Shown here piece after piece: positions 9,056-56,198 of a stretch of DNA of 56,388 nucleotides; position 1 is the first letter of the stretch, and the number at the start of each line of letters is the position of its first letter. The position numbers and the translations under genes were made by a program. The notes beneath the pieces were generated by a model, which saw only the letters and a list, made by a program, of their open reading frames with translations, was not told where the DNA came from and did not search any database. Source of the DNA: Candidatus Saccharimonadales bacterium (GTDB taxonomy: Bacteria > Patescibacteriota > Saccharimonadia > Saccharimonadales > UBA10212); contig JBBDKW010000018.1 in assembly GCA_040879175.1 (NCBI GenBank), positions 1-56,388 of the forward strand. The letters run 5' to 3'.

Positions 9056-10087
9056 CTAGGTGGCAGGGCGTAGACCAACAGCTTTTTGGACCTTAAGAAG
9101 CGTCTCTTGAGCCACGTTACTTATCGCCGCTTCATCCTCTTCCAGCTTTATCATCAGCTGCTCGGTATTAACTTGGGACAGTTTTGACTGCAGGCCAGCT
9201 AAAAATTCTTTGACTAAAGCGGCGGTCTCCGATTTTAGCTGGCTGTAGCTTGATTGACCCTCCCAGCGTTGATTGACCTCTGTTTGAGGTTTATCGCTCA
9301 GCAAGGCAATTATTTGTAATAGATTAGTGACGCCCGGCTGGTTCTGCCAATCATACTTGATGCTAGCCAGCGAATCAGTTGTGGCAGAAATGACTTTTGA
9401 AGCTGCCTCATCGGGGTTATCGCTCAGCATAATCGTGCCGGCTGGATCTTCTATAGACTTACTCATTTTCTTGTCGGGGTTGCGCAAACTGCGGATTCTA
9501 ACCGGCTCAGTAGTACCGACAAATTCGGCCTGCTCTTTAATAGTTGCTGGAACATTAAACAAGTTGCCGAACTTGTTATTTAGGCGTATTGCCAAATCAC
9601 GGGTAAATTCCAGATGTTGGCGCTGGTCGTCACCAACCGGCACCCACTTAGCACCATAAAGAAGAATATCGGCGGCCATCAGGACCGGATAGTTGAAGAG
9701 TCCAACGCTAATGATGGACTGGTCGGCGCTCTTCTCCTTGAATTCGGCCATCCGCGACAGCTCGCCGAAATAGGAAAAACAGTCCAAAATCCAGGTCATT
9801 TCAGAATGGGGCGGGATGTAGCTCTGCCGATAGATAAAGGTGTCTGGTTGCTCAATATCCAGCCCGGCTGCAACGAATACTTTCAGGTTTTCGATGCTCT
9901 GCTCATAGAGTTTTCCGTGTTCAACAGGGGTTGTAAAGCTATGCAAGTCCGGAATAAACATATTGAGCTGGTACCGCCCGGCGTGCTTATTCTGGAGTTC
10001 AACCATCGGTAGAATGGCGCCCAGATAATTGCCGAAGTGGAACTCGGCGTTGGAGCGCAAACCGGTTAAAACAACCTCTTTAGCCAT
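9056..10087 (-). CDS. trpS: Tryptophan--tRNA ligase
   Basis: The 343-aa class I synthetase has a HIGH-like FHFGNYLGA and a KMSKS motif. Confidence 0.9.
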   Translation of the reverse strand: MAKEVVLTGLRSNAEFHFGNYLGAILPMVELQNKHAGRYQLNMFIPDLHSFTTPVEHGKLYEQSIENLKVFVAAGLDIEQPDTFIYRQSYIPPHSEMTWILDCFSYFGELSRMAEFKEKSADQSIISVGLFNYPVLMAADILLYGAKWVPVGDDQRQHLEFTRDLAIRLNNKFGNLFNVPATIKEQAEFVGTTEPVRIRSLRNPDKKMSKSIEDPAGTIMLSDNPDEAASKVISATTDSLASIKYDWQNQPGVTNLLQIIALLSDKPQTEVNQRWEGQSSYSQLKSETAALVKEFLAGLQSKLSQVNTEQLMIKLEEDEAAISNVAQETLLKVQKAVGLRPAT

Positions 10088-10237
10088 TTGAATCTATTTT
10101 ACATTTTTCGTTTAATATTTAACATTGATTTTTTCATTTTAATCATTGGTTTTTCCGCAGAAATGACTAAATGTCAGCTGTTAGATAAATGTGTAATGTA
10201 AAATGTAAAATGCCAAATACTTAACTTGTTAGGTATT
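10088..10237. repeat. AT-rich mirrored array of CATT/AATG heptamer units (array A), ending in the rpsI terminator hairpin
   Basis: The left half has CATT units and the right half AATG units, with AATG starting at 10188, 10195, 10202 and 10209. The hairpin aaatacttaac/gttaggtattt lies at 10215..10238. Confidence 0.7.
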
Positions 10238-10639
10238 TTATCGTTTGCTGTACTGTTGTTTTTTACGGGCGCCGCGCAGGCCGAATTTTTTGCGTTCTTT
10301 TTCGCGAGGATCACGCCCGAGTAAGCCTGTCCTTCTAAGAGTGCCTCGAAAGTCACCATTAAGCTCAATTAGTGCTTTAGATATTCCTAACCTGATGGCG
10401 TCAACCTGGCTGGCGTGCCCACCGCCGTTTACCTTGACGCTGATAGTATATTTCTCAGGATCAAGCTCGAGTGTATTAAAGGGTTTGAGCAGCTCGTGTT
10501 GGAGATATTTACTGCCAGCGAAATAGTCACTCAACGGCTTGTCGTTGATAGTAAAACTTCCCTTCCCGCCGCTTATGCGCACCCGGGCTGTGGAGCTCTT
10601 TCGCCTGCCCAATCCGTAAAAGTAACTGTTTGAGCTCAT
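10238..10639 (-). CDS. rpsI: 30S ribosomal protein S9
   Basis: The 133-aa ORF starts YGLGRRKSSTARVRI and ends with the KKQQYSKR tail typical of S9. Confidence 0.97.
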   Translation of the reverse strand: MSSNSYFYGLGRRKSSTARVRISGGKGSFTINDKPLSDYFAGSKYLQHELLKPFNTLELDPEKYTISVKVNGGGHASQVDAIRLGISKALIELNGDFRGTLRRTGLLGRDPREKERKKFGLRGARKKQQYSKR

Positions 10640-17146: not shown

Positions 17147-17506
17147 CTAAAACTCCAATCCACCTTGGCGGGCCGCTTCGGCCAGCTTTTTTACCCTGCC
17201 ATGATATTGGCGTTCGCCGCGGTCGAATACCACCTTTTTAACCTTGGCCTTTAGGGCTTTTTTGGCAATTTCAGTACCGGCCCAGGTCGCCTTATCTGAT
17301 AGCGGCCCACCGGTCTTTTTCCCAACACTCGTCACATATGCCAGCGTTCGGCCACTGTCGTCATTGATAATCTGGACGCTCACTTGGCGATTACTGATAT
17401 GGACGCTCAACCTTGGCTTATCAGCCGTACCGTGCATCCTCCGGCGGGCTCTTTGGCGTCTTTGCTCCATTTTAAAACGCTTGTGGGCTAGGCTGTCCTG
17501 GCTCAT
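17147..17506 (-). CDS. rplR: 50S ribosomal protein L18
   Basis: The 119-aa ORF contains PRLSVHISNRQVSVQIINDDSGRTLA and YHGRVKKLAEAARQGGLEF. Confidence 0.97.
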   Translation of the reverse strand: MSQDSLAHKRFKMEQRRQRARRRMHGTADKPRLSVHISNRQVSVQIINDDSGRTLAYVTSVGKKTGGPLSDKATWAGTEIAKKALKAKVKKVVFDRGERQYHGRVKKLAEAARQGGLEF

Positions 17507-18048: not shown

Positions 18049-18070
18049 CAGTCGCTCCTTCCAGTCGCTC

Positions 18071-18098
18071 GAGGAATTAGGAACGAGGAATTAGGAAC
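18071..18098. repeat. Tandem 14-nt repeat (gaggaattaggaac x2) in the rpsH-rplF spacer
   Basis: The two exact 14-nt units lie at 18071..18084 and 18085..18098. A 9-nt repeat cagtcgctc occurs at 18049 and 18062. The inverted segment ttaggaac/gttccctaa can form a hairpin. Confidence 0.8.
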
Positions 18099-18129
18099 TA
18101 GACTTCCCTGTTCCCTAATGCGTGGCATT

Positions 18130-22062: not shown

Positions 22063-22371
22063 TTATCCTTCTGCCCTTGGCTTAGCTGACACGGCAGTTT
22101 CTTGGGCTTTAGCCAGTTTGCCGCCGTGGCCGCGGAACTTACGAGTTGGAGCAAACTCTCCCAGCTTATGGCCAACCATATCTTCGGTAATGAAAACTGG
22201 TACGTGAACCTTGCCGTTATGGACAGCTATGGTCCGGCCAACGAACTCCGGCGCAATCGTTGAAGCTCGAGCCCATGTTTTGATGATACTGCGGTCTTCC
22301 GAACCCAAAACCGCCACTTTCTTAGCTAACTTCGGGTCCACAAACGGTCCTTTTTTAAGCGATCTACCCAT
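22063..22371 (-). CDS. rpsS: 30S ribosomal protein S19
   Basis: It starts [15 protein letters not shown] from the ATG at 22371, with AGGAGG 5 nt upstream. The track's GTG at 22377 adds two residues. Confidence 0.97.
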
Positions 22372-22377
22372 AACCAC

Positions 22378-22496
22378 CTCCTATCGTCGGTGTAATTTTC
22401 AATTTACAATTTACGTTTTTCATTAAATTTACATTTAGCCATTTTCCATTTGCAGCTACATTGATAAATGATAATTGGAGTGACGCAGTCACGACT
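22378..22496. repeat. AT-rich heptamer array B splitting rplB from rpsS
   Basis: The 119-nt spacer reads aatttac aatttac ... catttag ccatttt ccatttg ... cattgat aaatgat. The small hairpin gtgac-tgc-gtcac follows the rplB stop. Confidence 0.65.
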
Positions 22497-23330
22497 TTAT
22501 CTCCTCGTTCCTTGCCGACGCTTGCGGACGATGAATTTGTCGGTTGTCTTACGTCTGCGAGTCTTGTAGCCCAAAGTGCGCTGACCCCAAGGAGTGCGGG
22601 GGTCGGAACCGCCCTTGCCCTTGCCTTCGCCGCCACCATGCGGGTGGCTAGCGGCATTCATCACGACGCCTCTGACAGTTGGTCGAATGCCCATGCGGCG
22701 CCGGCGGCCGGCCTTTCCAAGTTTGACGTTCTGGTGCTGTTCATTACCGACGGCGCCAATAGAAGCCAGCGAATTGATGCTTACCATTCGTACTTCGCCG
22801 CTAGGCAGTCGAATCTGGGCGTATTTTTCGTCTTTGGCTACCAACTGGGCGCTGGTACCGGCCGTACGGGCCAGCTGCGCCCCGCGGCCAGGTTGAAGTT
22901 CGACGGCGTGGACCGCTGTTCCGACAGGGATGTTTTTAAGAGGTGAGCGGTTACCGGCCTCGATTGCTGCTTCTTCCTGTACAGCCAGCTTGTCGCCTGG
23001 CTTCATACCCTTGGCGGCTAGGATATAACGATAATTACCGTTTTGGTCTTTAATTCGGGCAATTCTAGCACTACGGTTAGGGTCGTATTCAACTGCCTCG
23101 ACCTCGAATTCGGCCTCCGGCGCCAGCCTAAAGTCAACAACTCGGTAAAACTTTCGAGCACCGCCGCCGCGGTGCCGCGTGGTAATTCTACCAGCCGCAC
23201 TTCGACCGACTCGGCCTCTTTTGACCTTGAGAAGGCTCTTTAGAGGCTTCTTGGTAGTGATTTCAGCAAAATCCTGACTGGTCATAACGCGTCGGGCGGC
23301 CGTTGTCGGATTCTGGGTCTTGATGGCCAT
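22497..23330 (-). CDS. rplB: 50S ribosomal protein L2
   Basis: The 277-aa ORF contains GRSAAGRITTRHRGGGARKFYRVVDF and VMNAASHPHGGGEGK. Confidence 0.98.
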   Translation of the reverse strand: MAIKTQNPTTAARRVMTSQDFAEITTKKPLKSLLKVKRGRVGRSAAGRITTRHRGGGARKFYRVVDFRLAPEAEFEVEAVEYDPNRSARIARIKDQNGNYRYILAAKGMKPGDKLAVQEEAAIEAGNRSPLKNIPVGTAVHAVELQPGRGAQLARTAGTSAQLVAKDEKYAQIRLPSGEVRMVSINSLASIGAVGNEQHQNVKLGKAGRRRRMGIRPTVRGVVMNAASHPHGGGEGKGKGGSDPRTPWGQRTLGYKTRRRKTTDKFIVRKRRQGTRR

Positions 23331-27030: not shown

Positions 27031-27363
27031 TTAGTCAGAAGTAATCTCAGACTCGGTAATGTTAACTGCTTCTTCAAGTTCATCTATTTGTGTCTTGGAA
27101 TAGCTATGGGACTCCTCCAAATCCACCTCAACAATCTCACCAGAGGCATCACGACTAATCGTAGCTGCAACCCTAGTAGCTTTCTCCTTTGCCCCATATA
27201 TAAGATCAACCAGCGTACTTTGGGATGCTTCCCAAAATGACGCATGAAATATTTTTTCGCCAATTACTTTATTGTACTTTAATCCTACGCTCCCCAGGGC
27301 AAGCGCCGTGCCAAGTAACACTACTCTTTTGAGCCTCCGCTCCTCCTCGGGACTGAATTCCAT
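27031..27363 (-). CDS. Hypothetical 110-aa protein (N-terminal hydrophobic segment, acidic C-terminus)
   Basis: The ATG abuts the GT4 stop (TAGATG). It contains VVLLGTALALGSVGL. I recognise no family. Confidence 0.5.
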   Translation of the reverse strand: MEFSPEEERRLKRVVLLGTALALGSVGLKYNKVIGEKIFHASFWEASQSTLVDLIYGAKEKATRVAATISRDASGEIVEVDLEESHSYSKTQIDELEEAVNITESEITSD

Positions 27364-28536
27364 CTAGACGCGCCCCTTTTTGGCGATTTTTATGCGCTGC
27401 TGAATTTCCCGTCGTCTAACATCTCTGGCCCAAACCGATTCCAGCTCCTTCTTGCTCTTAAGGGTTATCCGTCGGATTTTTTCTTCTTCCCTCTCCCGGA
27501 TCCGGAATATCCGTAGAACCTTTTTATAGGCCCGCCCATACTGTTTGCTCATAATCTGGTAGTTAAAGAGCCGCCTAGCCCTTCTGGCGATATATTCGCG
27601 GTCCATCGCAAAGAGTTTGTCCATCTGGTGGTAGCCCTCGACCAAATCTTCTACCAGCAGCCCGGTCCTGCCTTCGTCAATCAACTCGGGCATCGAGCCT
27701 CGGGCTATAGCCATCGTCGGCGTGCCACAATAAGCCGCCTCGAGCACCGTTAGCCCAAAAGGCTCACGGAAACCAGTGGGGTGCAAGTTTAACCTGGCCT
27801 TACTCAAAAGCTTAATAGTCTGTCTTTTGTCAATTTCTCCTAAATACTCGACCAGCGGATGGCGGAAATATTTTTTGACCTCGCCCTTAAAGTAGTCGTC
27901 TCCCAGATAGTCGATTTTGCCGGCCAGCTTTATCTTGATTCCGTAGCTTAGGGCAAGTTCGATGGCCAGATGGGGGTTCTTTTCGCGGTCGAATCGGCCA
28001 ATGAAGCAAACATAATCCTCCGGACTTTTAGTCACCGGAAATTCCTTTGGATCTTCGCCGTTATAAACCGCTCCAACCCATTGCAGATCAGGGTATGCCT
28101 CCTGCTGGTTCTTAGATATCGACACGAAGTAGAGGCCCTGCCTCTTGGCGTAATAATCAAGCTGTTGGAAAATAATCGGCCCGTGTATGGTGGTTAGGTT
28201 CGGAAAATGTTCGAATTTCCGCAAATCAAAACCGTGTGAATGGATTATGTCGATGCTCGGCAGGATTTCTTTGAGCCTTTGCGTTGTATATCTCTCTATC
28301 TGTTTCAGCTCTTTCTCAAAAGCTGGCAAACCGGCCTTAGTTCGTGGAAAAAAAATAGCCTTTTTGACGATTGGAATAAGCTCGCAGTCAACTTTCGAAT
28401 CGCCGGGGGCGAACAGCACCGGCTCGTGCCCTCTTTCTTTTAGGCCTTTTATAAGATAGGCGATCACCCTTTCGGTGCCACCGTATTTTGGCGGCGGCAC
28501 AGGAATATATGGCGCGGCGACAATGGCAACTCTCAT
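27364..28536 (-). CDS. Glycosyltransferase family 4 (GT-B fold) with a basic C-terminal tail
   Basis: The 390-aa ORF has an N-terminal PYIPVPPPKYGGTERV and the retaining-GT signature REPFGLTVLEAAYCGTP. Confidence 0.8.
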   Translation of the reverse strand: MRVAIVAAPYIPVPPPKYGGTERVIAYLIKGLKERGHEPVLFAPGDSKVDCELIPIVKKAIFFPRTKAGLPAFEKELKQIERYTTQRLKEILPSIDIIHSHGFDLRKFEHFPNLTTIHGPIIFQQLDYYAKRQGLYFVSISKNQQEAYPDLQWVGAVYNGEDPKEFPVTKSPEDYVCFIGRFDREKNPHLAIELALSYGIKIKLAGKIDYLGDDYFKGEVKKYFRHPLVEYLGEIDKRQTIKLLSKARLNLHPTGFREPFGLTVLEAAYCGTPTMAIARGSMPELIDEGRTGLLVEDLVEGYHQMDKLFAMDREYIARRARRLFNYQIMSKQYGRAYKKVLRIFRIREREEEKIRRITLKSKKELESVWARDVRRREIQQRIKIAKKGRV

Positions 28537-28539
28537 AGA

Positions 28540-30072
28540 TTAAAAATGCTCTTTCTTCAATTCATACGGGTAATCGGGGTAGCGGGCGTTTAGCGAGCGG
28601 CTGGTTTTGAAGCGCGCAACTTTGGGAATATGTATCATTACTTCTCTCTCCAGCTCTTTCTGCCAAGGCTTCTGATGGAACCTACCTAAACGAAGTCCCG
28701 GACGTCTATCGGCCGAAATAGCAAATATAGCCGATACCGTCCAAGCTTGAATGCTTTCCGGCACGTTAGTGCTTTTTACTTCAAGGGCATGTGTGTGGCG
28801 ATGAGCCCGAGAAGACGAGCCCAGTACCCGCCCCCGGGGGTCGACATACAAATACTCAGGGTACCCCCGGCTTTTACGGACAACATTAAGCAGCCGGTTC
28901 TCGAGCTGTTTGGCAAGTTCCGGAAACCCCTGCCGCCGTAACCCCTTAGCAATATCATAAGTTTCTTTTGGCCAGCTGACATATGAGCCATGGTAATCCC
29001 AAAAAGGAATCAGGTTTGCCTCTGATAGAGCCCGGCTGCGGATACCGGCATCTGTCAAAAAGTCAGTCCCCATAATGTTACGCACAACGTTGCTGACGTA
29101 CTTTTCTTTATCCGTCTGAGCCAGATCATCAAAAAACCCGCTATTGAGAAGCGATGCCGGGTTGGCGGTTGTGGTCTTTATCATTCTAAGATTACCGTTC
29201 TGATCATAGTCGCTACCTAGTGCAAAATATTTCTTATCTTTTTGCCATAAAAGCATAATGGTCTGGTCGCGCAGCTTGTGAGCTTTATGCTTCAGCTCGT
29301 TTGCCCGCTGTGGTAAATATTCCGCAGCGCCGACTAAAGCATCGTAGGCCAACCCTTGTACTTCAATCGAAGCAACCGGCCTTGAGTGGTTTACCAACCG
29401 ACCGTTTTCGTGAACGTAAAACTCATTGGAATCTTTCCACGCCTGATTTTTAATTCCCTCATCATTGTGCGCGTGGTATTCAAGTAAGCCGCTTTTGGAA
29501 CAGTCAATCTTAGCCTCCACCCAAGCCAGTGCCTCGACCATTGCGTCTAACATTGTTACAGTCTGCCCGTCGCGCCGCACAATGTCTTTCCAGAGAATTC
29601 TGGGACTGTAAAAATCGCAGTATTCGCATAGCGTACGGATAAAATGGGGCGTAGCATCGACTGAGCCGTAATAAATTAAATTCTCTTCGTCCCCACCCCA
29701 ACGCCGACTCAAATTCTCAAAGATTTCGAGAGGCCGGCCACTTAGAGCTTTATCGTCAACGACCCTGGTGCGGTACTCGTGGATGATTCTGCCGGGCTCC
29801 TCCTCATTGGCGCTGTGATGAGCCAACCCCTGCAGTCTTGCAAGAGCAAGTAATATTCGCTTAGAAAGTTGCGACCGCAGAGTCATCAAATCTTCAGCTA
29901 CCACTAGCGAATCGCGGCCAAAAACCGCCCCCCTAAATAAGGTGTCCGAGCTGGCATAAACCCCCAGGCCGCTTTTAGAGATTACGTTTCTTAGCGCTAA
30001 TATTGGCGGAATTAGCAACTTGGGCTTCCTGATGAGCTGCCCAATTGCTTTATTGATAATAACTTTCACCAT
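28540..30072 (-). CDS. Amylo-alpha-1,6-glucosidase / glycogen-debranching-enzyme C-terminal-domain-like six-hairpin glycosidase
   Basis: The 510-aa ORF carries the motifs FGRDSLV, PGRIIHE, YGSVDATPHF, NQAWKDS, EVQGLAYDA, DAGIRSRA and YHGSYVSWP. Confidence 0.75.
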   Translation of the reverse strand: MVKVIINKAIGQLIRKPKLLIPPILALRNVISKSGLGVYASSDTLFRGAVFGRDSLVVAEDLMTLRSQLSKRILLALARLQGLAHHSANEEEPGRIIHEYRTRVVDDKALSGRPLEIFENLSRRWGGDEENLIYYGSVDATPHFIRTLCEYCDFYSPRILWKDIVRRDGQTVTMLDAMVEALAWVEAKIDCSKSGLLEYHAHNDEGIKNQAWKDSNEFYVHENGRLVNHSRPVASIEVQGLAYDALVGAAEYLPQRANELKHKAHKLRDQTIMLLWQKDKKYFALGSDYDQNGNLRMIKTTTANPASLLNSGFFDDLAQTDKEKYVSNVVRNIMGTDFLTDAGIRSRALSEANLIPFWDYHGSYVSWPKETYDIAKGLRRQGFPELAKQLENRLLNVVRKSRGYPEYLYVDPRGRVLGSSSRAHRHTHALEVKSTNVPESIQAWTVSAIFAISADRRPGLRLGRFHQKPWQKELEREVMIHIPKVARFKTSRSLNARYPDYPYELKKEHF

Positions 30073-30080
30073 CCGAAACC

Positions 30081-30196
30081 TAATTTACCATTTTATATTT
30101 ACCATTTTACATTTAATTAGCATTTAATCATTTAAACATTTGGCAAATGGCAAAATGATAAATAATTGGTAAATGTTAATTGATAAATGGTAAATA
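30081..30196. repeat. AT-rich mirrored CATT/AATG heptamer array C
   Basis: CATT starts at 30089, 30103, 30110, 30121, 30129 and 30137. After the centre ggcaaatggc, AATG units follow at 30146, 30154, 30172 and 30186. Confidence 0.7.
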
Positions 30197-30226
30197 TAAT
30201 ATTACTTGACTAGTCAAGTAATATTA
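30197..30226 (-). terminator. Perfect 30-bp palindrome overlapping the fusA stop; probable terminator hairpin or operator
   Basis: The palindrome taatattacttgactagtcaagtaatatta has perfect 15-bp arms. On the minus strand it is followed by TATATTTACCATTTATC. Confidence 0.5.
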
Positions 30227-40923: not shown

Positions 40924-41070
40924 TGCTCCCCTTAATCTAGATAGTTATAACTTTAGTACTTATAGTTTGAGCGAAGCCCACTACGTTCAATGCCTTTTTG
41001 CGGAGTCCTGAATTATGCCACCAAAATAGCACTAAAGTACTCTACTTCTTACACATTAGGGTATAGGATT

Positions 41071-41091
41071 AAGGGTCAAGGGTCAAGGGGT
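41071..41091. repeat. Tandem heptamer aagggtc x3 (third unit degenerate) in the rpoB upstream region
   Basis: The plus strand reads aagggtc aagggtc aaggggt. The minus strand reads CCCTTGA repeats, which create two TTGACC -35-like boxes. Confidence 0.7.
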
Positions 41092-41120
41092 TGGGCAAAA
41101 AAATGTTGTAGAATTGTCTA

Positions 41121-43229: not shown

Positions 43230-44555
43230 CTAATTATTTAGGTCGTCTTTTGGTCGGTGACGGGCAGCAAGAGTACTGACCAAGCGTTCAAGCGACAACT
43301 CCTTTTCTTCGCCGCTTCGCAAATCTTTCAGCTTGAATCGGCGTGTGGCGAGCTCGTGCTCGCCCAAGAATATAACATATGGTATACCGGACTTGACCGC
43401 ACTCTTGAGCTGGGCATCGAGTTTGCGCCCGGACGTATCAACCGCCAATCTCAATCCCTCTTCTCGCAAATCTGCTAAAGTTTGTTGCGCAGATTCGTAA
43501 ACATCACCAATCAGTACGATTGTGACATCAGTCTCTGGTTCAAATTTCGGCATCAGTTTGTGGCCTTCCAAGAACATTTGCAGCGTCACATCGCCCATTC
43601 CAAAGCCGACTGTCGGCACCGGCTCGACGCCGAAGGCGCCAACCAGCGCGTCATAGCGCCCGCCGCCGAACATCGAACGGCTGTTTTCCGGGTTGTTATC
43701 ATACACCTCAAAGACAATGTCGGTGTAGTAATCAAATCCTCTCATCAAAGATGGATTAAACACAGCACTCTGCACTCCGCTGGCAATCAACAAACTCATC
43801 AAATGTTGTAGTTGCTTGGCTGCTGGATGCTGCTGTACAACCAGCGGCAGTTCACCCAGTGTTTTGACTTTCAAAAGCCCGAGTAGCTGCGATATAACGT
43901 CTGCTTGGACTTGTGCCGGGCTGAGAAACATACTGGCAGACGCCTTGAACTCTTTCTCGGAAACTTTGTCCAGTTTATCTATCAGCCTCGCCAACGGTTG
44001 TATCTGTGATTGGTCGAAATGGAAGTTTTCCAGCAGGAACCAGTTAAGAAGCTGGCGGCTGTTAAGCCTGATGGTATAGCTATCCGGTTTAGCCCCGAAT
44101 GCTTTCAGTATTTTATCGGCCAGCAAAATAATCTCGTGGTCGGCTTCAATACCGGCCACGCCAAAGATATCAACATTGAGTTGCCAGTGTTCGCGCAATC
44201 GCCCGGCCTGTGGCCGCTCATAACGCCAGAGGTTGGGTATGCTGTACCAACGGACTGGATACGCCAGTTCTTGCCTTTTGCCGGCAACCATTCGGCTCAC
44301 CGAAGGTGTCATTTCCGGGCGCAAGGTTATGGTGCGACCACCGCGGTCGGTAAATACAAATGTCTGCTCAATCACGATTTCTTCGCTGGTCTTGCTCATA
44401 TAAATCTCGATTGGTTCGACAATCGGCGCGTCGTATTCCTGATAGCCAAAGCTCTCAGACACTTGTCTCAGTACGCCAAACATATATTTCTGGACGCGCT
44501 TATCCTCAGGGTAAAAATCGCGCGCGCCCTTATACGGTTGAGTAGAAAGAGCCAT
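43230..44555 (-). CDS. hisS: Histidine--tRNA ligase
   Basis: It starts MALSTQPYKGARDFYPEDK and contains LRPEMT, YYTDIVFE and GGGRYD. I chose the ATG at 44555 (GGGAGG upstream); the track start at 44591 adds 12 unlikely residues. Confidence 0.93.
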   Translation of the reverse strand: MALSTQPYKGARDFYPEDKRVQKYMFGVLRQVSESFGYQEYDAPIVEPIEIYMSKTSEEIVIEQTFVFTDRGGRTITLRPEMTPSVSRMVAGKRQELAYPVRWYSIPNLWRYERPQAGRLREHWQLNVDIFGVAGIEADHEIILLADKILKAFGAKPDSYTIRLNSRQLLNWFLLENFHFDQSQIQPLARLIDKLDKVSEKEFKASASMFLSPAQVQADVISQLLGLLKVKTLGELPLVVQQHPAAKQLQHLMSLLIASGVQSAVFNPSLMRGFDYYTDIVFEVYDNNPENSRSMFGGGRYDALVGAFGVEPVPTVGFGMGDVTLQMFLEGHKLMPKFEPETDVTIVLIGDVYESAQQTLADLREEGLRLAVDTSGRKLDAQLKSAVKSGIPYVIFLGEHELATRRFKLKDLRSGEEKELSLERLVSTLAARHRPKDDLNN

Positions 44556-44574
44556 TAGATGCCTCCCTCGGAGG

Positions 44575-44700
44575 CAATGAGCAATGAACAATGAGCAATT
44601 GACAATGAATTATCAATGTAACAATGATTCAATGCATTATTTGAGCATTGGCTATTTGTCCATTCATTGAACATTGAAAATTTGTCCATTGAGCATTTAT
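44575..44700. repeat. Heptamer array D with opposite polarity (CAATG units first, CATTG units second) in a divergent promoter region
   Basis: CAATG/CAATT starts at 44575, 44582, 44589, 44596, 44603, 44614, 44622 and 44630. CATT(G) starts at 44635, 44646, 44661, 44665, 44672, 44687 and 44694. Confidence 0.75.
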
Positions 44701-44753
44701 CTTACGAGTAATTATACCCCGCAGGGGATAACAATGGTAAGATAACTTTTAGT

Positions 44754-49025: not shown

Positions 49026-50267
49026 CTATTCTAATTCTACCAGGGCAGAGTCCTTGTAGGCTTTGCCGCGGCGCAGAAGTAACCGGCCGTTCTGGAAGTC
49101 GCGCGGCTCGAATGTATCACGTGTTACCTGTTGACCGTTAATATATACACCGCCATTTGCAAGTATTGTTCTCGCAATTGAGTTAGAGGCGACAAGTCCT
49201 GTTTTTACTAAAGCATCTATGATGCTTCCGACATCTCTTGCTCTGGTAGAAGGTACCTCATTTCTGATTTGTGCTAACTCTTCCTGTGTAGCCCCAGAAA
49301 TAGATACTTGACTAGTCAAGTATTTCGTAACTCCGGTGGCGGCGCTACTTTCCGAGCCATGCACCAGCTTTGTGACCTCTTCGGCTAATTTTTTCTGGGC
49401 CTTTCTCTGTGATGGGTCTACCTTATGCTCGCTCACCGCCTGCTCTATCTGTTCTTTGGGTAACAGAGTGAAGATTTTCAAGTAGTTTTCGACGTCCGCA
49501 TCGTCGCTGTTAATCCAAAACTGGTAAAACTGCGTCGGGCTGGTTTTTTGGGTGTCCAGCCACACTGTTCCGGCCTCAGTTTTGCCGAATTTCCGGCCTG
49601 TCGCTTTATCAACTACCAGCGGCATGCTTAGGGCGTGGACTTCTTTGCCTTCTTTCTTACGAATAAGCGCCACCCCCGAAAGCATATTACCCCATTGGTC
49701 CGAGCCGCCAATCTGCAACTCCACAGCGTGATTTTTAAACAGCTGCCAATAATCATACCCCTGGATTAGAGAGTAACTGAACTCGGCGTAACTGACGCCG
49801 CTGCCGCCCTCACCCATCCGCTCCCTTACAAACTCGCGCTGCATCAGCTCGGTCATAGAAAAACTCTTGCCAACCTCTCGTAGAAAATCGAGGTATTTGA
49901 CGTCCGCCAGCCATTTATAGTTGTCTGCCGGCGTAAAGTGTTGGCCGGCAAATAGGCCGGAAACTTGCTCTTTAATAGCCTCGGTGTTACGCAGGATTTC
50001 CTCGCGCGGCTGCAGCTCGCGCTCCTCAGTCTTACCACCTGGGTCGCCAATCAAACTGGTAGCACCGCCTACCAGCAAAACGGCCTTCCAGCCGCCGTCA
50101 ATCAGTCTTCTGGCGAGCAATAGCGCTGCCAAATTGCCGATAGTCAAACTATCTGAAGAGGCATCTACGCCGTGGTAGAAAGTCTTGGGTTCATCGAGCC
50201 AACCCAAATCGGTAAAGGTTTTGTCTTTTACCAGCCCGCGCCAGGCCAAATCTTCACTCAAGCTCAT
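49026..50267 (-). CDS. tyrS: Tyrosine--tRNA ligase
   Basis: It starts MSLSEDLAWRGLV and contains GGATSLIGDPGGK, KFGKT and a C-terminal S4 domain. I chose the ATG at 50267; the track's 504-aa version adds 91 non-homologous residues. Confidence 0.92.
   Translation of the reverse strand: MSLSEDLAWRGLVKDKTFTDLGWLDEPKTFYHGVDASSDSLTIGNLAALLLARRLIDGGWKAVLLVGGATSLIGDPGGKTEERELQPREEILRNTEAIKEQVSGLFAGQHFTPADNYKWLADVKYLDFLREVGKSFSMTELMQREFVRERMGEGGSGVSYAEFSYSLIQGYDYWQLFKNHAVELQIGGSDQWGNMLSGVALIRKKEGKEVHALSMPLVVDKATGRKFGKTEAGTVWLDTQKTSPTQFYQFWINSDDADVENYLKIFTLLPKEQIEQAVSEHKVDPSQRKAQKKLAEEVTKLVHGSESSAATGVTKYLTSQVSISGATQEELAQIRNEVPSTRARDVGSIIDALVKTGLVASNSIARTILANGGVYINGQQVTRDTFEPRDFQNGRLLLRRGKAYKDSALVELE
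49304..49323. repeat. Perfect 20-bp palindrome inside tyrS sharing an 18-bp core with the fusA terminator palindrome
   Basis: The palindrome is atacttgactagtcaagtat. The core tacttgactagtcaagta is identical to that at 30203..30220. Confidence 0.85.
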
Positions 50268-53763: not shown

Positions 53764-55110
53764 TTAGTCTTTTTCCAGAAACGTATTGAGTGCCCTACGC
53801 ACGTCAGTAACCGACAGCAAAAACGCCGGCTTCCTACCTGATCTTACAACCGGGCCGATTGCCGCCTCAAAACCGAGTTTTTTGGCTTCGGCCAGGCGTT
53901 TTTCTAAAAAAGGCACGTGGCGCACTTCACCGGAGAGCCCTGCTTCACCAAACACCACGGCGTTTTTCTTCAGTTGCATTCCTTTGGCGGCGCTAGCGAT
54001 AGCCATACACACAGCCAAATCAGCCGCCGGCTCGGTTAATCGGATGCCGCCGACGATGTTGACGTAAATATCGCGGTCAGCCAGCTTTAGTTTGGTGCGT
54101 CTTTCCAGCATGGCAATCAGCAGATTCACGCGGTTCAAATCAATGCCGCTGGCCGTCCGTTTGGGATAACCGTAACTCGTAGGATTGACCAAGGCTTGCA
54201 CTTCAACGAGTAGCGGCCGGCTGCCCTCCATGGTCGCGTGGACTACCGAGCCGTCGCTGGCCTGGCGCTCAGCCAGCAATGCCGCCGAGGGGTTACTAAC
54301 CGCCTGCATACCCTTATCTGTCATTTCAAAGATTCCGGCCTCTGTTGTGGCGCCGTAGCGGTTTTTTACCGCCCGCAGTATTTTGAAACCACCATAACGG
54401 TCGCCTTCCAGCTGCAGCACCACGTCTACGATATGTTCTAAGACCTTTGGCCCGGCAATCGAGCCTTCTTTGGTAACGTGACCGACCAAAACCAATGCCG
54501 TATTGGTCGATTTTGCCGCCGCGCTCAAAAGCTGGGTACTGTTGGTAACTTGGCTGATGTTGCCGGCAGCCGAAGTGATCTCGTTGACGGCAATCGACTG
54601 CACCGAGTCCATAATCACGACGTCGAAATCGCCGGAGGCGATCGTTGTCGCGATATCGTTCGTAACCGTAGAAACGGCCAGTTGAAGCGATTTGGCCTTA
54701 GTCCCTAGCCTTTCTGCCCGCAACGCTATCTGTTGGCCGGATTCTTCGCCGCTGACATATAAGACTCTTTGTTCGCCGGCGATATTGTTGGCAATTTGTA
54801 GTAGCAAAGTGCTTTTACCCATACCCGGCTGTCCGGCCAGCAGGTTGACGCTGCCGGCTACCAGTCCACCGCCCAAAACCTCATCAACATCAGATATTTT
54901 AGTAGAAACCCGTTTCGTCTTGGCGGTTGCCGCGTTGGCCACCGATTCAATATTTAAGCGCTTACCGCTGGCGCCGGCGGTCGAAGTGCTGACCTCAACT
55001 TGCTCCTGTAAAGTGTTCCACTCACCGCAAACCCGGCAACGACCGGTCCACGAGGTGCTTACAGCCCCGCAATTACCACAGACGTATTTGACTCCCAAAC
55101 GTTTCGCCAT
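53764..55110 (-). CDS. radA: DNA repair protein RadA/Sms
   Basis: The 448-aa ORF has a zinc ribbon (CGNCGAVSTSWTGRCRVCGEW), Walker A GQPGMGKST, a KNRYG motif, and a Lon-like C-terminal domain. Confidence 0.95.
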   Translation of the reverse strand: MAKRLGVKYVCGNCGAVSTSWTGRCRVCGEWNTLQEQVEVSTSTAGASGKRLNIESVANAATAKTKRVSTKISDVDEVLGGGLVAGSVNLLAGQPGMGKSTLLLQIANNIAGEQRVLYVSGEESGQQIALRAERLGTKAKSLQLAVSTVTNDIATTIASGDFDVVIMDSVQSIAVNEITSAAGNISQVTNSTQLLSAAAKSTNTALVLVGHVTKEGSIAGPKVLEHIVDVVLQLEGDRYGGFKILRAVKNRYGATTEAGIFEMTDKGMQAVSNPSAALLAERQASDGSVVHATMEGSRPLLVEVQALVNPTSYGYPKRTASGIDLNRVNLLIAMLERRTKLKLADRDIYVNIVGGIRLTEPAADLAVCMAIASAAKGMQLKKNAVVFGEAGLSGEVRHVPFLEKRLAEAKKLGFEAAIGPVVRSGRKPAFLLSVTDVRRALNTFLEKD

Positions 55111-55214
55111 AAATACATTCTACATTTACCATTTAACATTTGACATTTATTTTTTATTTACCAATGAGTCAATGCTTAATGTTAAATAAATGCAAAGTGG
55201 GCAATGCTAAATGC
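55111..55214. repeat. AT-rich mirrored CATT/AATG heptamer array E
   Basis: CATT starts at 55116, 55123, 55130, 55137 and 55144, in exact 7-nt steps. After the centre tttattttttattta, AATG starts at 55163, 55171, 55178, 55189, 55203 and 55210. Confidence 0.8.
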
Positions 55215-56198
55215 TCAATTCGCCGTTTGCGGGGCAAGGCTGGTGTCGAGCGAATCGTATAAACTACTCAGTTCGGCCGCTAAGGCATTGTGGGCGGCTA
55301 CCAACCGGTTGTATTCAGCGATATCGGCCCGCAATTCGACAACTCCATCGTTGTAGTCATTAACCGCGGCGTTAAAAGCCGGCACAGCGGCGTTGTACTC
55401 GTCAACCTGACCAGAGGCGCGCAGGCTATCCAGTCGCCTTCTATCAGCCTCAAGCTGTTCCAGCTGGCTGCTCAACGCCGCTTCCTCTTTGTCGATTCTC
55501 TGCTTCAAATCCACCAGCCGCCGCTCGAAATCTTTAATCTTGGCTATGCGGCTGGCGAACTCATCGGCGTATTGATTGGCAAAGGCGACAACAGCCGAAC
55601 GGTTACTAAAATAACGCTGATAGTAGGACTCGAGCTCAGGTGTCAGGCTGCCAACCTCGGTAGCAAAAATCGAGTGCATCTCATTCAGCAGTTCGTCAGG
55701 CTCGGTCTGTTTATAGGTGTCGATTGTCTCAAGCACTCTTCTATCGCGCAGATCGTCGCTGTAAAAATCATTGAGCAGCCCATTAATGCGGTTTTTATCA
55801 TCTTGACTTAAGCGGTCATAGGCGGCGTGCAGCACTTCGTGGGCCGCCGTAACCTCGACCACACCGTTAAGCCGTGCGTCTTGGACGTTGTAGATGTAGA
55901 TGGCGCTGCTAAAACCGGTGTGGTAGCAGCCAAGCACGATTGTCTGCTCAAAACTCGGGCAGGCCTGGCGGAAAGCATCAGCCTCGTTTATTAAGTCCGG
56001 GTGTGTGACATAAAAGATGTGTTTAGCATCATCAGTCATCGTGTCGGCTCGGGCGATGGCGGCAATGGCTGCCGGCGGTGTGTAATTTCTAAGCCTCAGC
56101 CAGTCTTCTATGGCTTGGAGGTTAAATAGGCCAAATACCAGCAACGCCAAAATGGTCAGCGTCGCAGTCCCAGCAAAAACCCTCCAAAACCTATTCAT
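55215..56198 (-). CDS. Hypothetical membrane-anchored protein with an HExxH motif and a C-terminal coiled coil
   Basis: The 327-aa ORF has an N-terminal TM helix (TATLTILALLVFGLF), the motif VTAAHEVLHAAYD, and a heptad-rich tail (RRLVDLKQRIDKEEAALSSQLEQLEADRRRLDSL). Confidence 0.6.
   Translation of the reverse strand: MNRFWRVFAGTATLTILALLVFGLFNLQAIEDWLRLRNYTPPAAIAAIARADTMTDDAKHIFYVTHPDLINEADAFRQACPSFEQTIVLGCYHTGFSSAIYIYNVQDARLNGVVEVTAAHEVLHAAYDRLSQDDKNRINGLLNDFYSDDLRDRRVLETIDTYKQTEPDELLNEMHSIFATEVGSLTPELESYYQRYFSNRSAVVAFANQYADEFASRIAKIKDFERRLVDLKQRIDKEEAALSSQLEQLEADRRRLDSLRASGQVDEYNAAVPAFNAAVNDYNDGVVELRADIAEYNRLVAAHNALAAELSSLYDSLDTSLAPQTAN

What the first reader, a model, noticed from the sequence alone, without database searches (positions are those of the whole stretch)
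10088..10237. Family of AT-rich intergenic arrays: 7-nt-phased CATT/AATG units in mirrored halves (five loci)
Five spacers (10088..10237, 22378..22496, 30081..30196, 44575..44700, 55111..55214) are built from short units containing CATT on one half and AATG on the other, so each array is a large imperfect palindrome. Phasing is often exactly 7 nt: CATT at 55116/55123/55130/55137/55144, AATG at 10188/10195/10202/10209, and CAATG at 44575/44582/44589/44596/44603. The units read TnAAATG or TAnAATG, which is -10-hexamer-like plus G. In arrays A, B, C and E the sense units point toward the adjacent downstream gene start (trpS, rpsS, the glycosidase gene, radA). Such arrays are not standard promoters, terminators, REP elements or CRISPRs. 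Possible roles include stacked promoter or UP elements, nucleoid-protein or sigma-factor landing pads, cruciform-forming boundary elements between transcription units, or insulators.
Basis: seen in the sequence. Interest (0 to 1): 0.62.

Follow-up and report, generated by a model that had tools for sequence, protein, structure and literature searches.

The report
Heptamer-armed palindromic repeats at gene junctions
The five AT-rich spacers are real, lineage-specific insertions of small palindromic repeats built from 7-base units. They are gene-less relatives of the "intervening sequence" cassettes known from ribosomal RNA genes, and in this tiny Saccharibacteria genome they sit exactly where the next gene's promoter should be.

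Summary
All five spacers are strongly enriched in CATT/AATG, phased at 7 nt. Four are mirrored; B is essentially one-armed and D has the halves in reverse order.

- **Broader class.** Period 7 dominates the low-GC spacers of this 0.55-Mb Saccharibacteria genome: 75 arrays, against 2-7 for other periods. Many unit types occur, and arrays are also inserted in the 16S and 23S rRNA genes.
- **Three families.** The five loci split into type I (A, C, E), type II (D) and a B-type (B).
- **Recent insertions.** Same-genus relatives have spacers of 2-78 nt at the same junctions.
- **Link to S23p.** All 24 PF05635 (S23p/Avd-like "23S rRNA IVS protein") genes examined have arrays on both sides, clearly 7-nt-periodic in 22. 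One protein clade carries exactly the CATT/AATG arm types, so the window arrays read as ORF-less derivatives of IVS-type cassettes.
- **Promoter position.** The genome mostly uses leaderless promoters, with a -10 box 6-9 nt before the start codon. Type I ends read AAATGTA(A/G)AAT at that distance from the start codons of trpS and radA, which have no Shine-Dalgarno (SD) sequence.

Promoter activity, RNase III processing and the way the elements spread are inferred, not shown. No RNA data exist. The kind is known; this variant is apparently undescribed.

The parts
10089..10217 (.). Array A: type I palindromic heptamer element between rpsI (stop 10238-10240) and trpS (ATG 10085-10087), both on the - strand
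   Evidence: Sequence. nhmmer family. Model R1 hit at 10093-10217, E 6.7e-15. Folds with z -2 to -3 on both strands.
10096..10101 (-). TAAAAT -10-like hexamer at the element's end, 8 nt before the SD-less trpS start codon
   Evidence: Congeners without the array have TATAAT-N8-ATG at the same place.
10216..10237 (.). Degenerate copy of the dispersed palindrome aaTACTTGACTAGTCAAGTAtt, 2 nt after the rpsI stop
   Evidence: 10218-10235, 4 substitutions. The same palindrome accompanies the arrays at this junction in G003 and G004, and is absent from the array-free congeners.
22383..22496 (-). Array B: B-type, essentially one-armed heptamer array (AAATGNN / TAAATTG units in the sense direction), plus a GTGACTGCGTCAC hairpin (22480-22492). 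It is inserted in the normally tight rplB|rpsS junction. A new AGGAGG SD lies at 22374-22382 and the rpsS ATG at 22369-22371.
   Evidence: (relatives at C1 22133 and C1 25418). All five congeners have 2-6 nt between rplB and rpsS.
30079..30196 (.). Array C: type I element between fusA (stop 30224-30226) and a glycoside-hydrolase-like gene (ATG 30070-30072). TAAATT (30082-30087, - strand) lies 9 nt before the start codon.
   Evidence: z -5.5 and -6.4; E 1.8e-18.
30197..30226 (.). Perfect 15+15 palindrome TAATATTACTTGACT/AGTCAAGTAATATTA whose last three bases (30224-30226) are the fusA stop codon, adjoining array C
   Evidence: (100% complementary). G003 has the same palindrome at this junction without an array.
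44575..44700 (.). Array D: type II element (CAATGNN arm 44575-44634, NNCATTG arm 44635-44700) between divergent hisS (ATG 44553-44555, - strand) and a 240-aa gene (44754, + strand)
   Evidence: (z -5.6). Homologous to C9 9492, C12 220, C13 16616, the 23S insert C6 3832-4010 and the arms of the S23p cassette at C5 31160-31660.
44561..44575 (-). GCCTCCGAGGGAGGC hairpin holding the hisS Shine-Dalgarno sequence, at the gene-proximal end of the inserted block
   Evidence: Congeners have a 20-nt leaderless spacer with TAAAAT-N6-ATG instead. Similar CCTCC..GGAGG hairpins flank elements in G016.
44711..44740 (-). Promoter-like site TTACCA-18-TATAAT, next to a CCCCGCAGGGG hairpin (44717-44727). It would transcribe the whole type II hairpin as the hisS 5' UTR.
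   Evidence: (10 of 12 matches).
55111..55214 (.). Array E: type I element filling the whole spacer from the stop of the 327-aa gene (55215-55217) to the radA ATG (55108-55110)
   Evidence: (E 8.3e-17). The closest congeners have 17-20 nt here.
55117..55122 (-). TAGAAT -10 hexamer 6 nt before the SD-less radA start codon (promoter-like ATGTCA-18-TAGAAT)

Best explanation
The five spacers are ORF-less copies of small palindromic insertion cassettes whose two arms are inverted arrays of 7-nt units. This is the same design as the S23p-encoding 'intervening sequences' (IVS) of 23S rRNA genes.

**Shown**
- They belong to three families: type I = A, C, E; type II = D; B-type = B. These families recur, with very uneven copy number, across Saccharimonadales genomes.
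- They are insertions of about 85-180 nt into junctions that are 2-78 nt long in same-genus relatives.
- Homologous arms flank PF05635 (S23p/Avd-like) genes and form an insert in this genome's own 23S rRNA gene.
- They lie almost only between co-directional genes.
- The genome mostly uses leaderless promoters, and type I ends place TA(A/G)AAT 6-9 nt before SD-less start codons. D lies between a TATAAT box and an SD hairpin.

**Inferred**
- After insertion the element end supplies, or sits flush against, the -10 box of the downstream gene. The arrays then act as portable promoter or 5'-UTR modules.
- In read-through transcripts the 35-45-bp imperfect hairpin is a likely substrate of the encoded RNase III, as shown for rRNA IVSs in other bacteria.
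- The 7-nt period reflects slippage growth of the arms.
- How new copies arise is unknown. No transposase or reverse transcriptase was found, and S23p is the only associated protein.
For: 1. **Period 7 is specific.** Lag-7 autocorrelation is 0.363 against about 0.275 in low-GC spacers. There are 75 arrays for period 7 against 2-7 for periods 5, 6 and 8-11, and 56 of the 75 are intergenic.
2. **Families.** nhmmer groups A, C, E with about 10 other loci, D with 6, and B with 2.
3. **Patchy distribution.** Model R1 hits 25 of 61 related genomes. Within the genus the counts are 41, 5, 0, 52, 18, 2 and 0 matches, counted on both strands.
4. **Filled against empty sites in congeners**.
   - rpsI|trpS is 30-45 nt with TATAAT-N8-ATG in four genomes.
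   - The radA junction is 17-20 nt.
   - rplB|rpsS is 2-6 nt.
   - hisS has a 20-nt leaderless spacer.
   - More distant relatives (EF-G about 80% identical) have almost no arrays in 22 kb.
5. **S23p link.**
   - The genome has four PF05635 genes, each between inverted heptamer arms.
   - Twenty more in seven genomes have arrays on both sides; of all 24, 22 score at least 11 of 21 lag-7 matches on both sides and 18 at least 13, while L155 and L158 score 6-13.
   - A 100/100-supported protein clade of six carries only CATT/AATG-type arms, split into type II against type I/B sub-clades.
   - PF05635 is present in 7 of 8 element-rich genomes and in 0-1 of 5 element-free genomes.
   - A type II copy sits in the 23S gene in the helix-25 region.
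6. **Context.** Arrays occur in 47 of 220 co-directional, 4 of 73 divergent and 0 of 42 convergent spacers.
7. **Leaderless geometry.** Only 125 of 509 genes have an SD. TANNNT counts ending 6, 7, 8 and 9 nt before start codons are 54, 35, 29 and 32, against about 12 background. The element-linked distances are:

| Genome | Locus | Distance from -10 to start (nt) |
|---|---|---|
| G000 | trpS (A) | 8 |
| G000 | radA (E) | 6 |
| G000 | C13a | 6 |
| G000 | C12 | 6 |
| G000 | C (TAAATT) | 9 |
| G016 | L129 | 6 |
| G016 | L137 | 6 |
| G016 | L144 | 6 |

8. **RNase III.** The gene is present.
9. **Literature.**
   - The Coxiella IVS is cut by RNase III and carries a variable number of heptamer repeats (PMC4990558).
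   - Inverted heptamer pairs lie between aligned ORFs in Xanthomonas (PMC4692102).
   - Correia elements create promoters at their ends and bind RNase III (PMC2649163).
Against: - **No transcript data.** Searches found no RNA runs, so promoter use and RNase III cutting are untested.
- **Copies are not near-identical.** Median pairwise identity is 0.66 in this genome and 0.71 in G016. Controls give 0.57 for shuffled and 0.61 for heptad-permuted sequences. Much of the 'family' signal is therefore shared heptad vocabulary, and a recent transposition burst is not shown.
- **No classical mobility features.** No target-site duplication was seen, and no Y1 transposase or reverse transcriptase was found (the genome is 81% complete).
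- **S23p is not always present.** G037 has 43 matches but no PF05635 gene.
- **The -10 at trpS may be ancestral.** Its 8-nt distance is the same as in array-free congeners.
- **In-situ growth also occurs.** At the radA junction G003 has a one-armed TTGTTNA x5 array that looks grown from the local TGTTGCT sequence.
- **No evidence for a selected RNA fold.** Sense and antisense RNA folds are equally stable (12 of 24, p = 0.9), and RNAalifold finds no conserved register.
- **Exceptions to the context rule.** G000 element C17a (between two small ORFs of 70 and 81 aa) and G016 element L130 lie between convergent ORFs.
Confidence: 0.55

Rival explanations
1. Pure in-situ microsatellite growth. The arrays are STRR-like heptamer simple-sequence repeats produced locally by polymerase slippage in AT-rich spacers. 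Mirror symmetry arises by template switching, and there is no mobility and no function.
For: - Many different unit sequences occur genome-wide.
- Two pairing registers 7 columns apart fit equally well.
- Copy-to-copy identity is only slightly above a heptad-permuted control.
- The G003 radA junction holds a one-armed array resembling the local seed TGTTGCT.
- Over-representation of heptamers among bacterial SSRs has been attributed to slippage (PMC4692102).
Against: - Non-repetitive colinear blocks are shared between loci and between genera, for example TATTTAACAGGTAACATTT and AAATAAATG.
- nhmmer E-values between loci reach 1e-11 to 1e-19.
- Whole 85-180-nt blocks, including flanking hairpins, are present or absent between congeners.
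- The same arm families flank a specific S23p protein clade.
- 36 of 61 related genomes have no match despite similar composition.
Confidence: 0.15
2. The selected function is at the RNA level. The arrays are operon-internal hairpins whose main role is RNase III processing, 3'-end protection or termination of polycistronic transcripts. They would be mRNA 'intervening sequences', and any promoter-like ends are incidental.
For: - Hairpins of -16 to -41 kcal/mol form on either strand.
- Arrays are confined to co-directional junctions.
- Homologous inserts lie in 16S and 23S rRNA genes.
- RNase III is encoded and is itself preceded by a mirrored array.
- IVS stems are cut by RNase III in other bacteria (PMC4990558).
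- D lies inside a predicted 5' UTR.
Against: - There is no sense-strand bias in stability or G-U use.
- There is no conserved pairing register or covariation.
- B does not fold better than shuffles.
- There are no U-tracts or terminator-like sites.
- Close relatives do without the arrays at the same junctions.
Confidence: 0.15
3. Dedicated DNA-level regulatory arrays. The heptads are binding sites for a trans-acting protein, such as a nucleoid protein, a sigma or UP-type contact, or S23p itself, one protomer per 7 nt. The arrays would then act as landing pads or insulators.
For: - The period is a strict 7 nt and each family has a conserved vocabulary.
- The arrays lie directly upstream of -10 boxes, where UP elements act.
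- The palindromy behaves as a DNA-level property, with no strand bias.
- They co-occur with the nucleic-acid-binding S23p/Avd-like family (PMC10053308).
Against: - No binding protein has been identified.
- Unit sequences differ widely between arrays in one genome.
- The arrays are absent from orthologous junctions of congeners.
- No conserved -35 or UP signal appears in the genome's promoters.
Confidence: 0.1

Closest known systems
23S rRNA intervening sequences (IVS) with an S23p ORF (Coxiella, Leptospira; PF05635; PMC4990558)
   Same: - An inverted-repeat stem encloses an optional S23p gene.
- The stem contains tandem heptamers of variable number.
- A homologous ORF-less copy lies in this genome's own 23S gene (helix-25 region).
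- The genome encodes RNase III.
   Different: - The five window copies lie between protein-coding genes, not in rRNA.
- They have no ORF.
- Their arms are long arrays of 5-8 heptads.
- The family reaches tens of copies per 0.6-0.8-Mb genome.
- Excision has not been tested.
Correia repeat enclosed elements (CREE/NEMIS) of Neisseria (PMC2649163)
   Same: - Palindromic intergenic elements of about 100-150 bp.
- Present or absent between close relatives.
- Co-transcribed with neighbouring genes.
- Their ends create promoters.
- Their hairpins are RNase III substrates.
   Different: - No TA target-site duplication was seen.
- The arms are heptamer arrays, not unique terminal inverted repeats.
- Copies are far more diverged from one another.
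- The promoters here would be leaderless (-10 only).
- The associated protein is S23p, not a transposase.
Heptanucleotide repeats: STRR of heterocystous cyanobacteria and GGGAATC inverted pairs of Xanthomonas (PMC4692102)
   Same: - Tandem 7-nt units.
- Frequent convergent (inverted) pairs.
- A preference for spacers between aligned ORFs.
- Length variation between relatives.
   Different: - AT-rich units with no quadruplex potential.
- A conserved non-repeat core and dispersed families shared across genera.
- A documented link to S23p cassettes and to leaderless promoter positions.
REP/BIME and other MITE-like palindromes (RPE, ERIC, BOX, RUP)
   Same: Dispersed extragenic palindromes at gene ends, with possible effects on mRNA stability or expression.
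   Different: - No RAYT/Y1 transposase was found.
- There is no conserved REP head sequence.
- The internal 7-nt periodicity is not a feature of those families.

Membership tests
S23p-type intervening-sequence (IVS) cassette | Terminal inverted repeats able to form a long stem | tested here: met
   A, C, D and E have arms 71-75% complementary over 35-51 nt and fold with z -2 to -6. B does not fold better than shuffles.
S23p-type intervening-sequence (IVS) cassette | Encloses a PF05635 (S23p) ORF | tested here: not met
   None of the five window arrays has an ORF, and A, C, D and E have stops in all frames. Homologous arms do enclose PF05635 genes at C5 31254-31541 and in G016, G013, G027, G033 and G036.
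S23p-type intervening-sequence (IVS) cassette | Located in a 23S rRNA helix (9, 25 or 45) | tested here: not met
   The window copies are at mRNA junctions. A type II homologue lies in the 23S gene after the GTGAAATAGAGCCTGAAAT... segment (C6 3832-4010).
S23p-type intervening-sequence (IVS) cassette | Excised from the transcript by RNase III | not testable with these tools
   The rnc gene is present, but no RNA runs hold these sequences.
MITE (e.g. Correia element) | Multi-copy, with presence/absence polymorphism between close relatives | tested here: met
   Matches per congener range from 0 to 52. Filled and empty sites are seen at all five junctions.
MITE (e.g. Correia element) | Target-site duplication and a cognate transposase-encoding parent | tested here: not met
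   Filled-against-empty comparisons show no direct repeat at the borders. No Y1 transposase or reverse transcriptase was found. The only ORF-bearing relatives encode S23p.
MITE (e.g. Correia element) | Near-identical copies from recent transposition | tested here: not met
   Median identity is 0.66-0.71 and the maximum 0.79-0.87, against 0.61 for a heptad-permuted control.
Heptamer SSR / STRR-like arrays | Head-to-tail 7-nt units over-represented relative to other periods | tested here: met
Heptamer SSR / STRR-like arrays | Unit-number variation between strains | tested here: inconclusive
   Contigs from two samples of the same study are identical across C and D. Copies and congeners differ in the number of heptads.
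Intrinsic (Rho-independent) terminator | G+C-rich stem followed by a U-tract | tested here: not met
   No terminator-like site in the four spacers scanned (A, C, D, E). No strict array in 42 convergent spacers.
Sigma-70-type (leaderless) promoter | TANNNT hexamer 6-9 nt before the start codon of an SD-less gene, the genome's own geometry | tested here: met
   A has d = 8, E has d = 6 and C has d = 9. D and B instead carry an SD downstream of the array.
Sigma-70-type (leaderless) promoter | Transcription actually starts there | not testable with these tools
   No RNA-seq runs are available.
REP/REPIN | Associated RAYT (Y1 transposase) and a conserved REP head | tested here: not met
   PF01797 is absent, and the alignments show no conserved head motif.

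The most novel reading that the evidence does not exclude
S23p (Avd-like four-helix-bundle) cassettes with heptad-repeat stems may be a distinct class of propagating 'intervening-sequence' elements that needs neither a transposase nor a reverse transcriptase. On this reading they can lodge in any heavily transcribed DNA, such as rRNA genes and ribosomal-protein or tRNA-synthetase operons. The 7-nt period would be the footprint of the factor that reads or copies the arms, possibly the S23p oligomer, which would explain why arm family tracks protein clade. In ultra-small CPR genomes their ORF-less derivatives would have been co-opted as portable leaderless promoters or insulators.
Probability: 0.2. 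Interest if true: 0.8.

Novelty: new variant of a known kind. Interest (0 to 1): 0.55.

Why it matters
Heptamer repeats and rRNA intervening sequences have each been known for decades without an accepted function or mode of spread. Here they appear as one system: the same heptad-armed stems enclose S23p genes, interrupt rRNA genes and, without an ORF, fill operon junctions.

In a 0.55-Mb genome under strong streamlining, dozens of 100-180-bp insertions in core translation operons are unexpected. Examples are the rplB|rpsS, fusA, rpsI|trpS, hisS and radA junctions.

The insertions sit flush with leaderless -10 boxes. That suggests they rewire expression of essential genes.

If S23p, a homologue of the DGR accessory protein Avd, is involved in their spread, its function would become testable. 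No paper in the searchable library links Saccharibacteria or Patescibacteria with such repeats.

Tried and rejected
- **Consensus RNA structure.** RNAalifold on 12 type I copies gave no consensus structure. A register scan gave two equally good registers 7 columns apart. I therefore built a sequence-only model, not a structured one.
- **Selection on the sense RNA hairpin.** No bias was found.
- **Transcript evidence.** No RNA runs exist for the window or for a G016 locus.
- **Population variation.** Contigs from two samples are identical over C and D, so this was uninformative.
Rejected for A, C, D and E, which have stops in all three sense frames. B has an open frame, but it is in phase with neither rplB nor rpsS.
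- **DGR involvement of the Avd-like S23p.** No reverse transcriptase was found.
- **REP/RAYT.** No Y1 transposase was found.
- **Canonical terminators.** None were found.
- **Known RNA families.** Rfam reports only tRNAs in the window.
- **TACTTGACTAGTCAAGTA palindrome as a -35 box.** Its spacing to the nearest -10-like hexamers is 13-15 nt, which is not convincing.
Full report
**Observation.**
- A position scan confirms the quoted 7-nt series, with one exception: 44596 is CAATT, not CAATG.
- CATT+AATG reach 83 per kb in the five spacers, against about 7 per kb in the whole window.
- Each spacer holds 6-14 motifs against 1.4-2.0 in shuffles of the same composition. Exact 7-nt spacings number 1-6 against 0.01 expected.
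- The other spacers in the window have 43-60% GC and none of this.
- A, C, D and E are imperfect palindromes, with arms 71-75% complementary over 35-51 nt. They fold with z -2 to -6 on both strands.
- B is essentially one-armed (5 CATT, 1 AATG; z about 0).
- D has the halves in the opposite order, AATG then CATT.

**Gene context.** Searches give the flanking genes. All are on the - strand except the 240-aa gene.

| Array | Upstream gene | Downstream gene |
|---|---|---|
| A | rpsI | trpS |
| B | rplB | rpsS (inside the S10 operon) |
| C | fusA | glycoside-hydrolase-like gene |
| D | divergent pair: hisS and a 240-aa gene | |
| E | 327-aa coiled-coil-like gene | radA |

**The organism and the wider class.** The window is contig 18 of a 0.55-Mb, 18-contig genome. 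Its relatives are named Saccharibacteria or Saccharimonadales.
- In its low-GC spacers the base-identity autocorrelation peaks at lags 7, 14 and 21 (0.363, 0.334 and 0.310, against about 0.275). Coding DNA shows only the 3-nt period.
- A simple detector finds 75 arrays of period 7, against 2-7 for periods 5, 6 and 8-11. Of the 75, 56 are intergenic.
- The units are very diverse: CATTTAN/NTAAATG, CAATGAN/NTCATTG, CAAAAAC/GTTTGAA, GAATTAG/CTAATTC, GTAGTTA/TATCTAC and others. They are usually arranged as mirrored halves.
- Such hairpins also interrupt the 16S gene (C15 14698-14770) and the 23S gene (C6 3832-4010 and 5155-5224).

**Three sequence families.** nhmmer with each array as query groups them as follows (alignments):
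- Type I: A, C and E with about ten other loci of 103-128 nt.
- Type II: D with C9 9492, C12 220, C13 16616, a half copy on C8, the 23S insert and an S23p cassette on C5.
- B-type: B with two loci on C1 that share its GTGACTGCGTCAC hairpin.

Type I copies share non-repeat features, such as CATTTATTTAACAGGTAACATTT mirrored by AAATAAATG, and a terminal AAATGTAAAAT at both ends.

Pairwise identity is modest, however.
- The median is 0.66 in this genome, 0.71 in G016 and 0.68 between the two.
- Controls give 0.57 for shuffled and 0.61 for heptad-permuted sequences.
- Much of the resemblance is therefore shared heptads in a shared layout. Only some pairs are clearly colinear (E 1e-11 to 1e-19).

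**Distribution and recency.** A sequence-only model of 12 type I copies (R1) matches 25 of 61 related genomes.
- Counts are extremely uneven. Within the genus they are 41, 5, 0, 52, 18, 2 and 0 matches, with both strands counted.
- Several other genera have 50 or more matches, and many genomes have none.

The orthologous junctions of the six congeners show the following.

| Junction | Array-free congeners | This genome (G000) |
|---|---|---|
| rpsI, trpS | 30-45 nt with TATAAT-N8-ATG in four genomes | palindrome plus arrays (also in G003 and G004) |
| 327-aa gene, radA | 17-20 nt | 104 nt |
| rplB, rpsS | 2-6 nt in all five, with the SD inside rplB | 119 nt with a new AGGAGG |
| hisS | 20-nt divergent leaderless spacer | 198 nt |
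| fusA, hydrolase | 45-78 nt in the closest relatives | 151 nt |

- More distant relatives (EF-G about 80% identical) have almost no arrays in 22 kb.
- Unrelated Patescibacteria carry their own mirrored heptamer arrays with other units, even at rplB|rpsS.
- The arrays are thus lineage-specific gains of whole blocks at sites that recurrently accept them.
- I saw no target-site duplication.
- One congener (G003) has a one-armed TTGTTNA x5 array at the radA junction. It looks grown from the local sequence, so in-situ slippage also operates.

**Link to S23p/IVS cassettes.**
- The genome has four PF05635 genes ('23S rRNA intervening sequence protein', S23p). Each lies in the loop between inverted heptamer arms. 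The C5 cassette has type II arms.
- In seven related genomes, 20 further PF05635 genes were fetched and all have arrays on both sides. Of the 24 in total, 22 score at least 11 of 21 lag-7 matches on both sides and 18 score at least 13.
- A protein tree splits them into two deep clades (100/100 support). The clade of six carries only CATT/AATG-type arms.
  - Type II arms: L165 and G000 C5, which are sisters.
  - Type I arms: L162, L166 and L164.
  - B-type arms: L163.
- Other arm families, such as GTAGATA/CGAACTA, also track protein sub-clades across genera.
- PF05635 occurs in 7 of 8 element-rich genomes and in 0-1 of 5 element-free genomes tested. G037 has many matches and no PF05635 gene.
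- PF05635 is homologous to the DGR accessory protein Avd (PMC10053308). No reverse transcriptase and no Y1 transposase were found here (the genome is 81% complete).

The window arrays are thus best read as ORF-less derivatives of IVS-type cassettes sitting in mRNA junctions.

**Position relative to expression signals.**
- Arrays occupy 47 of 220 co-directional spacers, 4 of 73 divergent and 0 of 42 convergent. These rest on crude ORF calls. Model R1 does find element C17a in G000 and element L130 in G016 between convergent ORFs.
- None of the four spacers scanned (A, C, D, E) has a terminator-like site.
- Only 125 of 509 genes have an SD. TANNNT hexamers peak sharply 6-9 nt before start codons (54, 35, 29 and 32, against about 12 background). 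No -35 signal is conserved. Leaderless, -10-driven expression is therefore the norm.
- Type I elements that abut a start codon place TA(A/G)AAT at that distance from an SD-less start.
  - In G000: trpS 8 nt, radA 6 nt, two further genes 6 nt, and the hydrolase gene 9 nt (TAAATT).
  - In G016: three genes at 6 nt.
- Six of eight strict cases fall at exactly 6 nt, the genome's modal distance. This is unlikely for a random heptad phase (about 2e-4 by a binomial estimate of my own). The cases may not be independent.
- Other copies are followed by a CCTCC..GGAGG hairpin that holds the SD (D here; L138-L143 in G016).
- D lies between TTACCA-18-TATAAT and the hisS SD hairpin. It would therefore be transcribed as a 5' UTR.
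- It cannot be decided whether the terminal hexamer is brought by the element or is the ancestral -10 kept at the border.
  - At radA the end matches the element consensus better (9 of 12) than the empty site (7 of 12).
  - At trpS the 8-nt distance equals that of array-free congeners.

**RNA-level tests.**
- Hairpins are stable on either strand, but sense and antisense do not differ (12 of 24; mean difference -0.1 kcal/mol; p = 0.9).
- No conserved register or covariation exists.
- Nothing therefore shows selection for the sense RNA fold.
- RNase III is encoded, and a mirrored array sits just upstream of it.
- No RNA runs exist. DNA contigs from two samples are identical across C and D.

**Comparison with known systems.**
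- The closest match by descent and design is the S23p-type rRNA IVS.
- The closest by behaviour are the Correia elements of Neisseria. They are palindromic, polymorphic in presence, create promoters at their ends and bind RNase III (PMC2649163).
- The closest by repeat type are STRR and Xanthomonas heptamer arrays, including inverted pairs between aligned ORFs (PMC4692102).

Membership fails on defining points for each:
- IVS: the window copies are not in rRNA and have no ORF.
- MITEs: there is no target-site duplication, no transposase and no near-identical copies.
- The Xanthomonas repeats: the units are not G-rich.

A full-text search found no paper linking Saccharibacteria or Patescibacteria with such repeats. 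Earlier notes of this scan describe the same phenomenon in other Saccharibacteria genomes. I treated them as leads and re-tested the S23p link, the promoter idea and the 'translated bridge' idea here. The last fails in this window.

**Verdict.** This is a real feature: a new variant of known kinds (IVS, palindromic repeat and heptamer SSR).
- About 0.85 confidence that the arrays are ORF-less relatives of S23p-type heptad-armed cassettes inserted in this lineage.
- About 0.55 for the composite explanation that includes promoter provision.
- RNase III processing and the mode of spread remain inference.

Noticed in passing
window 30197-30226, 10216-10237, 49305-49322; about 25 copies genome-wide (e.g. 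C3 22429, C4 424, C7 21118, C12 16761): A dispersed 18-22-bp palindrome, aaTACTT(G/A)AC(T/A)(A/T)GT(C/T)AAGTAtt, is often flanked by an A-run and a T-run. It often lies 2-3 nt after a stop codon and sometimes inside ORFs. At the rpsI|trpS and fusA junctions it travels with the heptamer arrays. It could be a weak bidirectional terminator, an operator or an uptake-type sequence.
   Followed up: partly
G000 C15 14698-14770 (16S); C6 3832-4010 and 5155-5224 (23S): Mirrored heptamer hairpins interrupt the rRNA genes. GTAGTTA/TATCTAC units occur in the 16S and in one 23S site, and a type II CAATG/CATTG array lies in the 23S helix-25 region. These look like ORF-less intervening sequences.
   Followed up: partly
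G000 C7 18789-18861, upstream of rnc (C7 18926-19561): A mirrored heptamer array (GAATTAT../..CTAATTCC) lies in the presumed 5' leader of the RNase III gene. This recalls rnc autoregulation through a leader hairpin in E. coli.
   Followed up: no
whole genome G000: Only about a quarter of genes have a Shine-Dalgarno motif. A sharp TANNNT peak 6-9 nt before start codons, with no conserved -35, indicates widespread leaderless mRNAs in this Saccharibacterium.
   Followed up: partly
window 18070-18119 and 41057-41092: Two further heptamer arrays lie in the window and were not part of the finding. GAGGAATTAGGAAC x2, with a partial inverted arm, sits between two ribosomal-protein genes. (T/A)AGGGT(C/A) x5 sits upstream of the 209-aa gene.
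   Followed up: no
window 27031-30072: Three genes are wedged between fusA and tuf: an MGH1/trehalase-like glycoside hydrolase, a GT4 glycosyltransferase and a 110-aa ORF. At least the hydrolase is conserved in the genus at this position but absent from more distant relatives.
   Followed up: partly
G000 C3 about 22500-22540 and C17 about 17285-17325: A second dispersed long palindrome, GTACGTTATAACTTTGTTATAACAAAGTTATAACGTAC, occurs in two spacers.
   Followed up: no
G000 C1 6006-6042, C1 17415-17458, C10 210-245, C16 11182-11219, C3 1935-2014, C5 32366-32445: Heptamer arrays, mostly GGTAGTT-type and some mirrored, lie inside long open frames by my crude ORF calls. They may be in-frame insertions in genes or miscalled ORFs.
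   Followed up: no
window 22364-22657 (- strand): A 97-codon open frame runs from inside rplB across the whole of array B, out of phase with both rplB and rpsS. It is probably spurious.
   Followed up: partly
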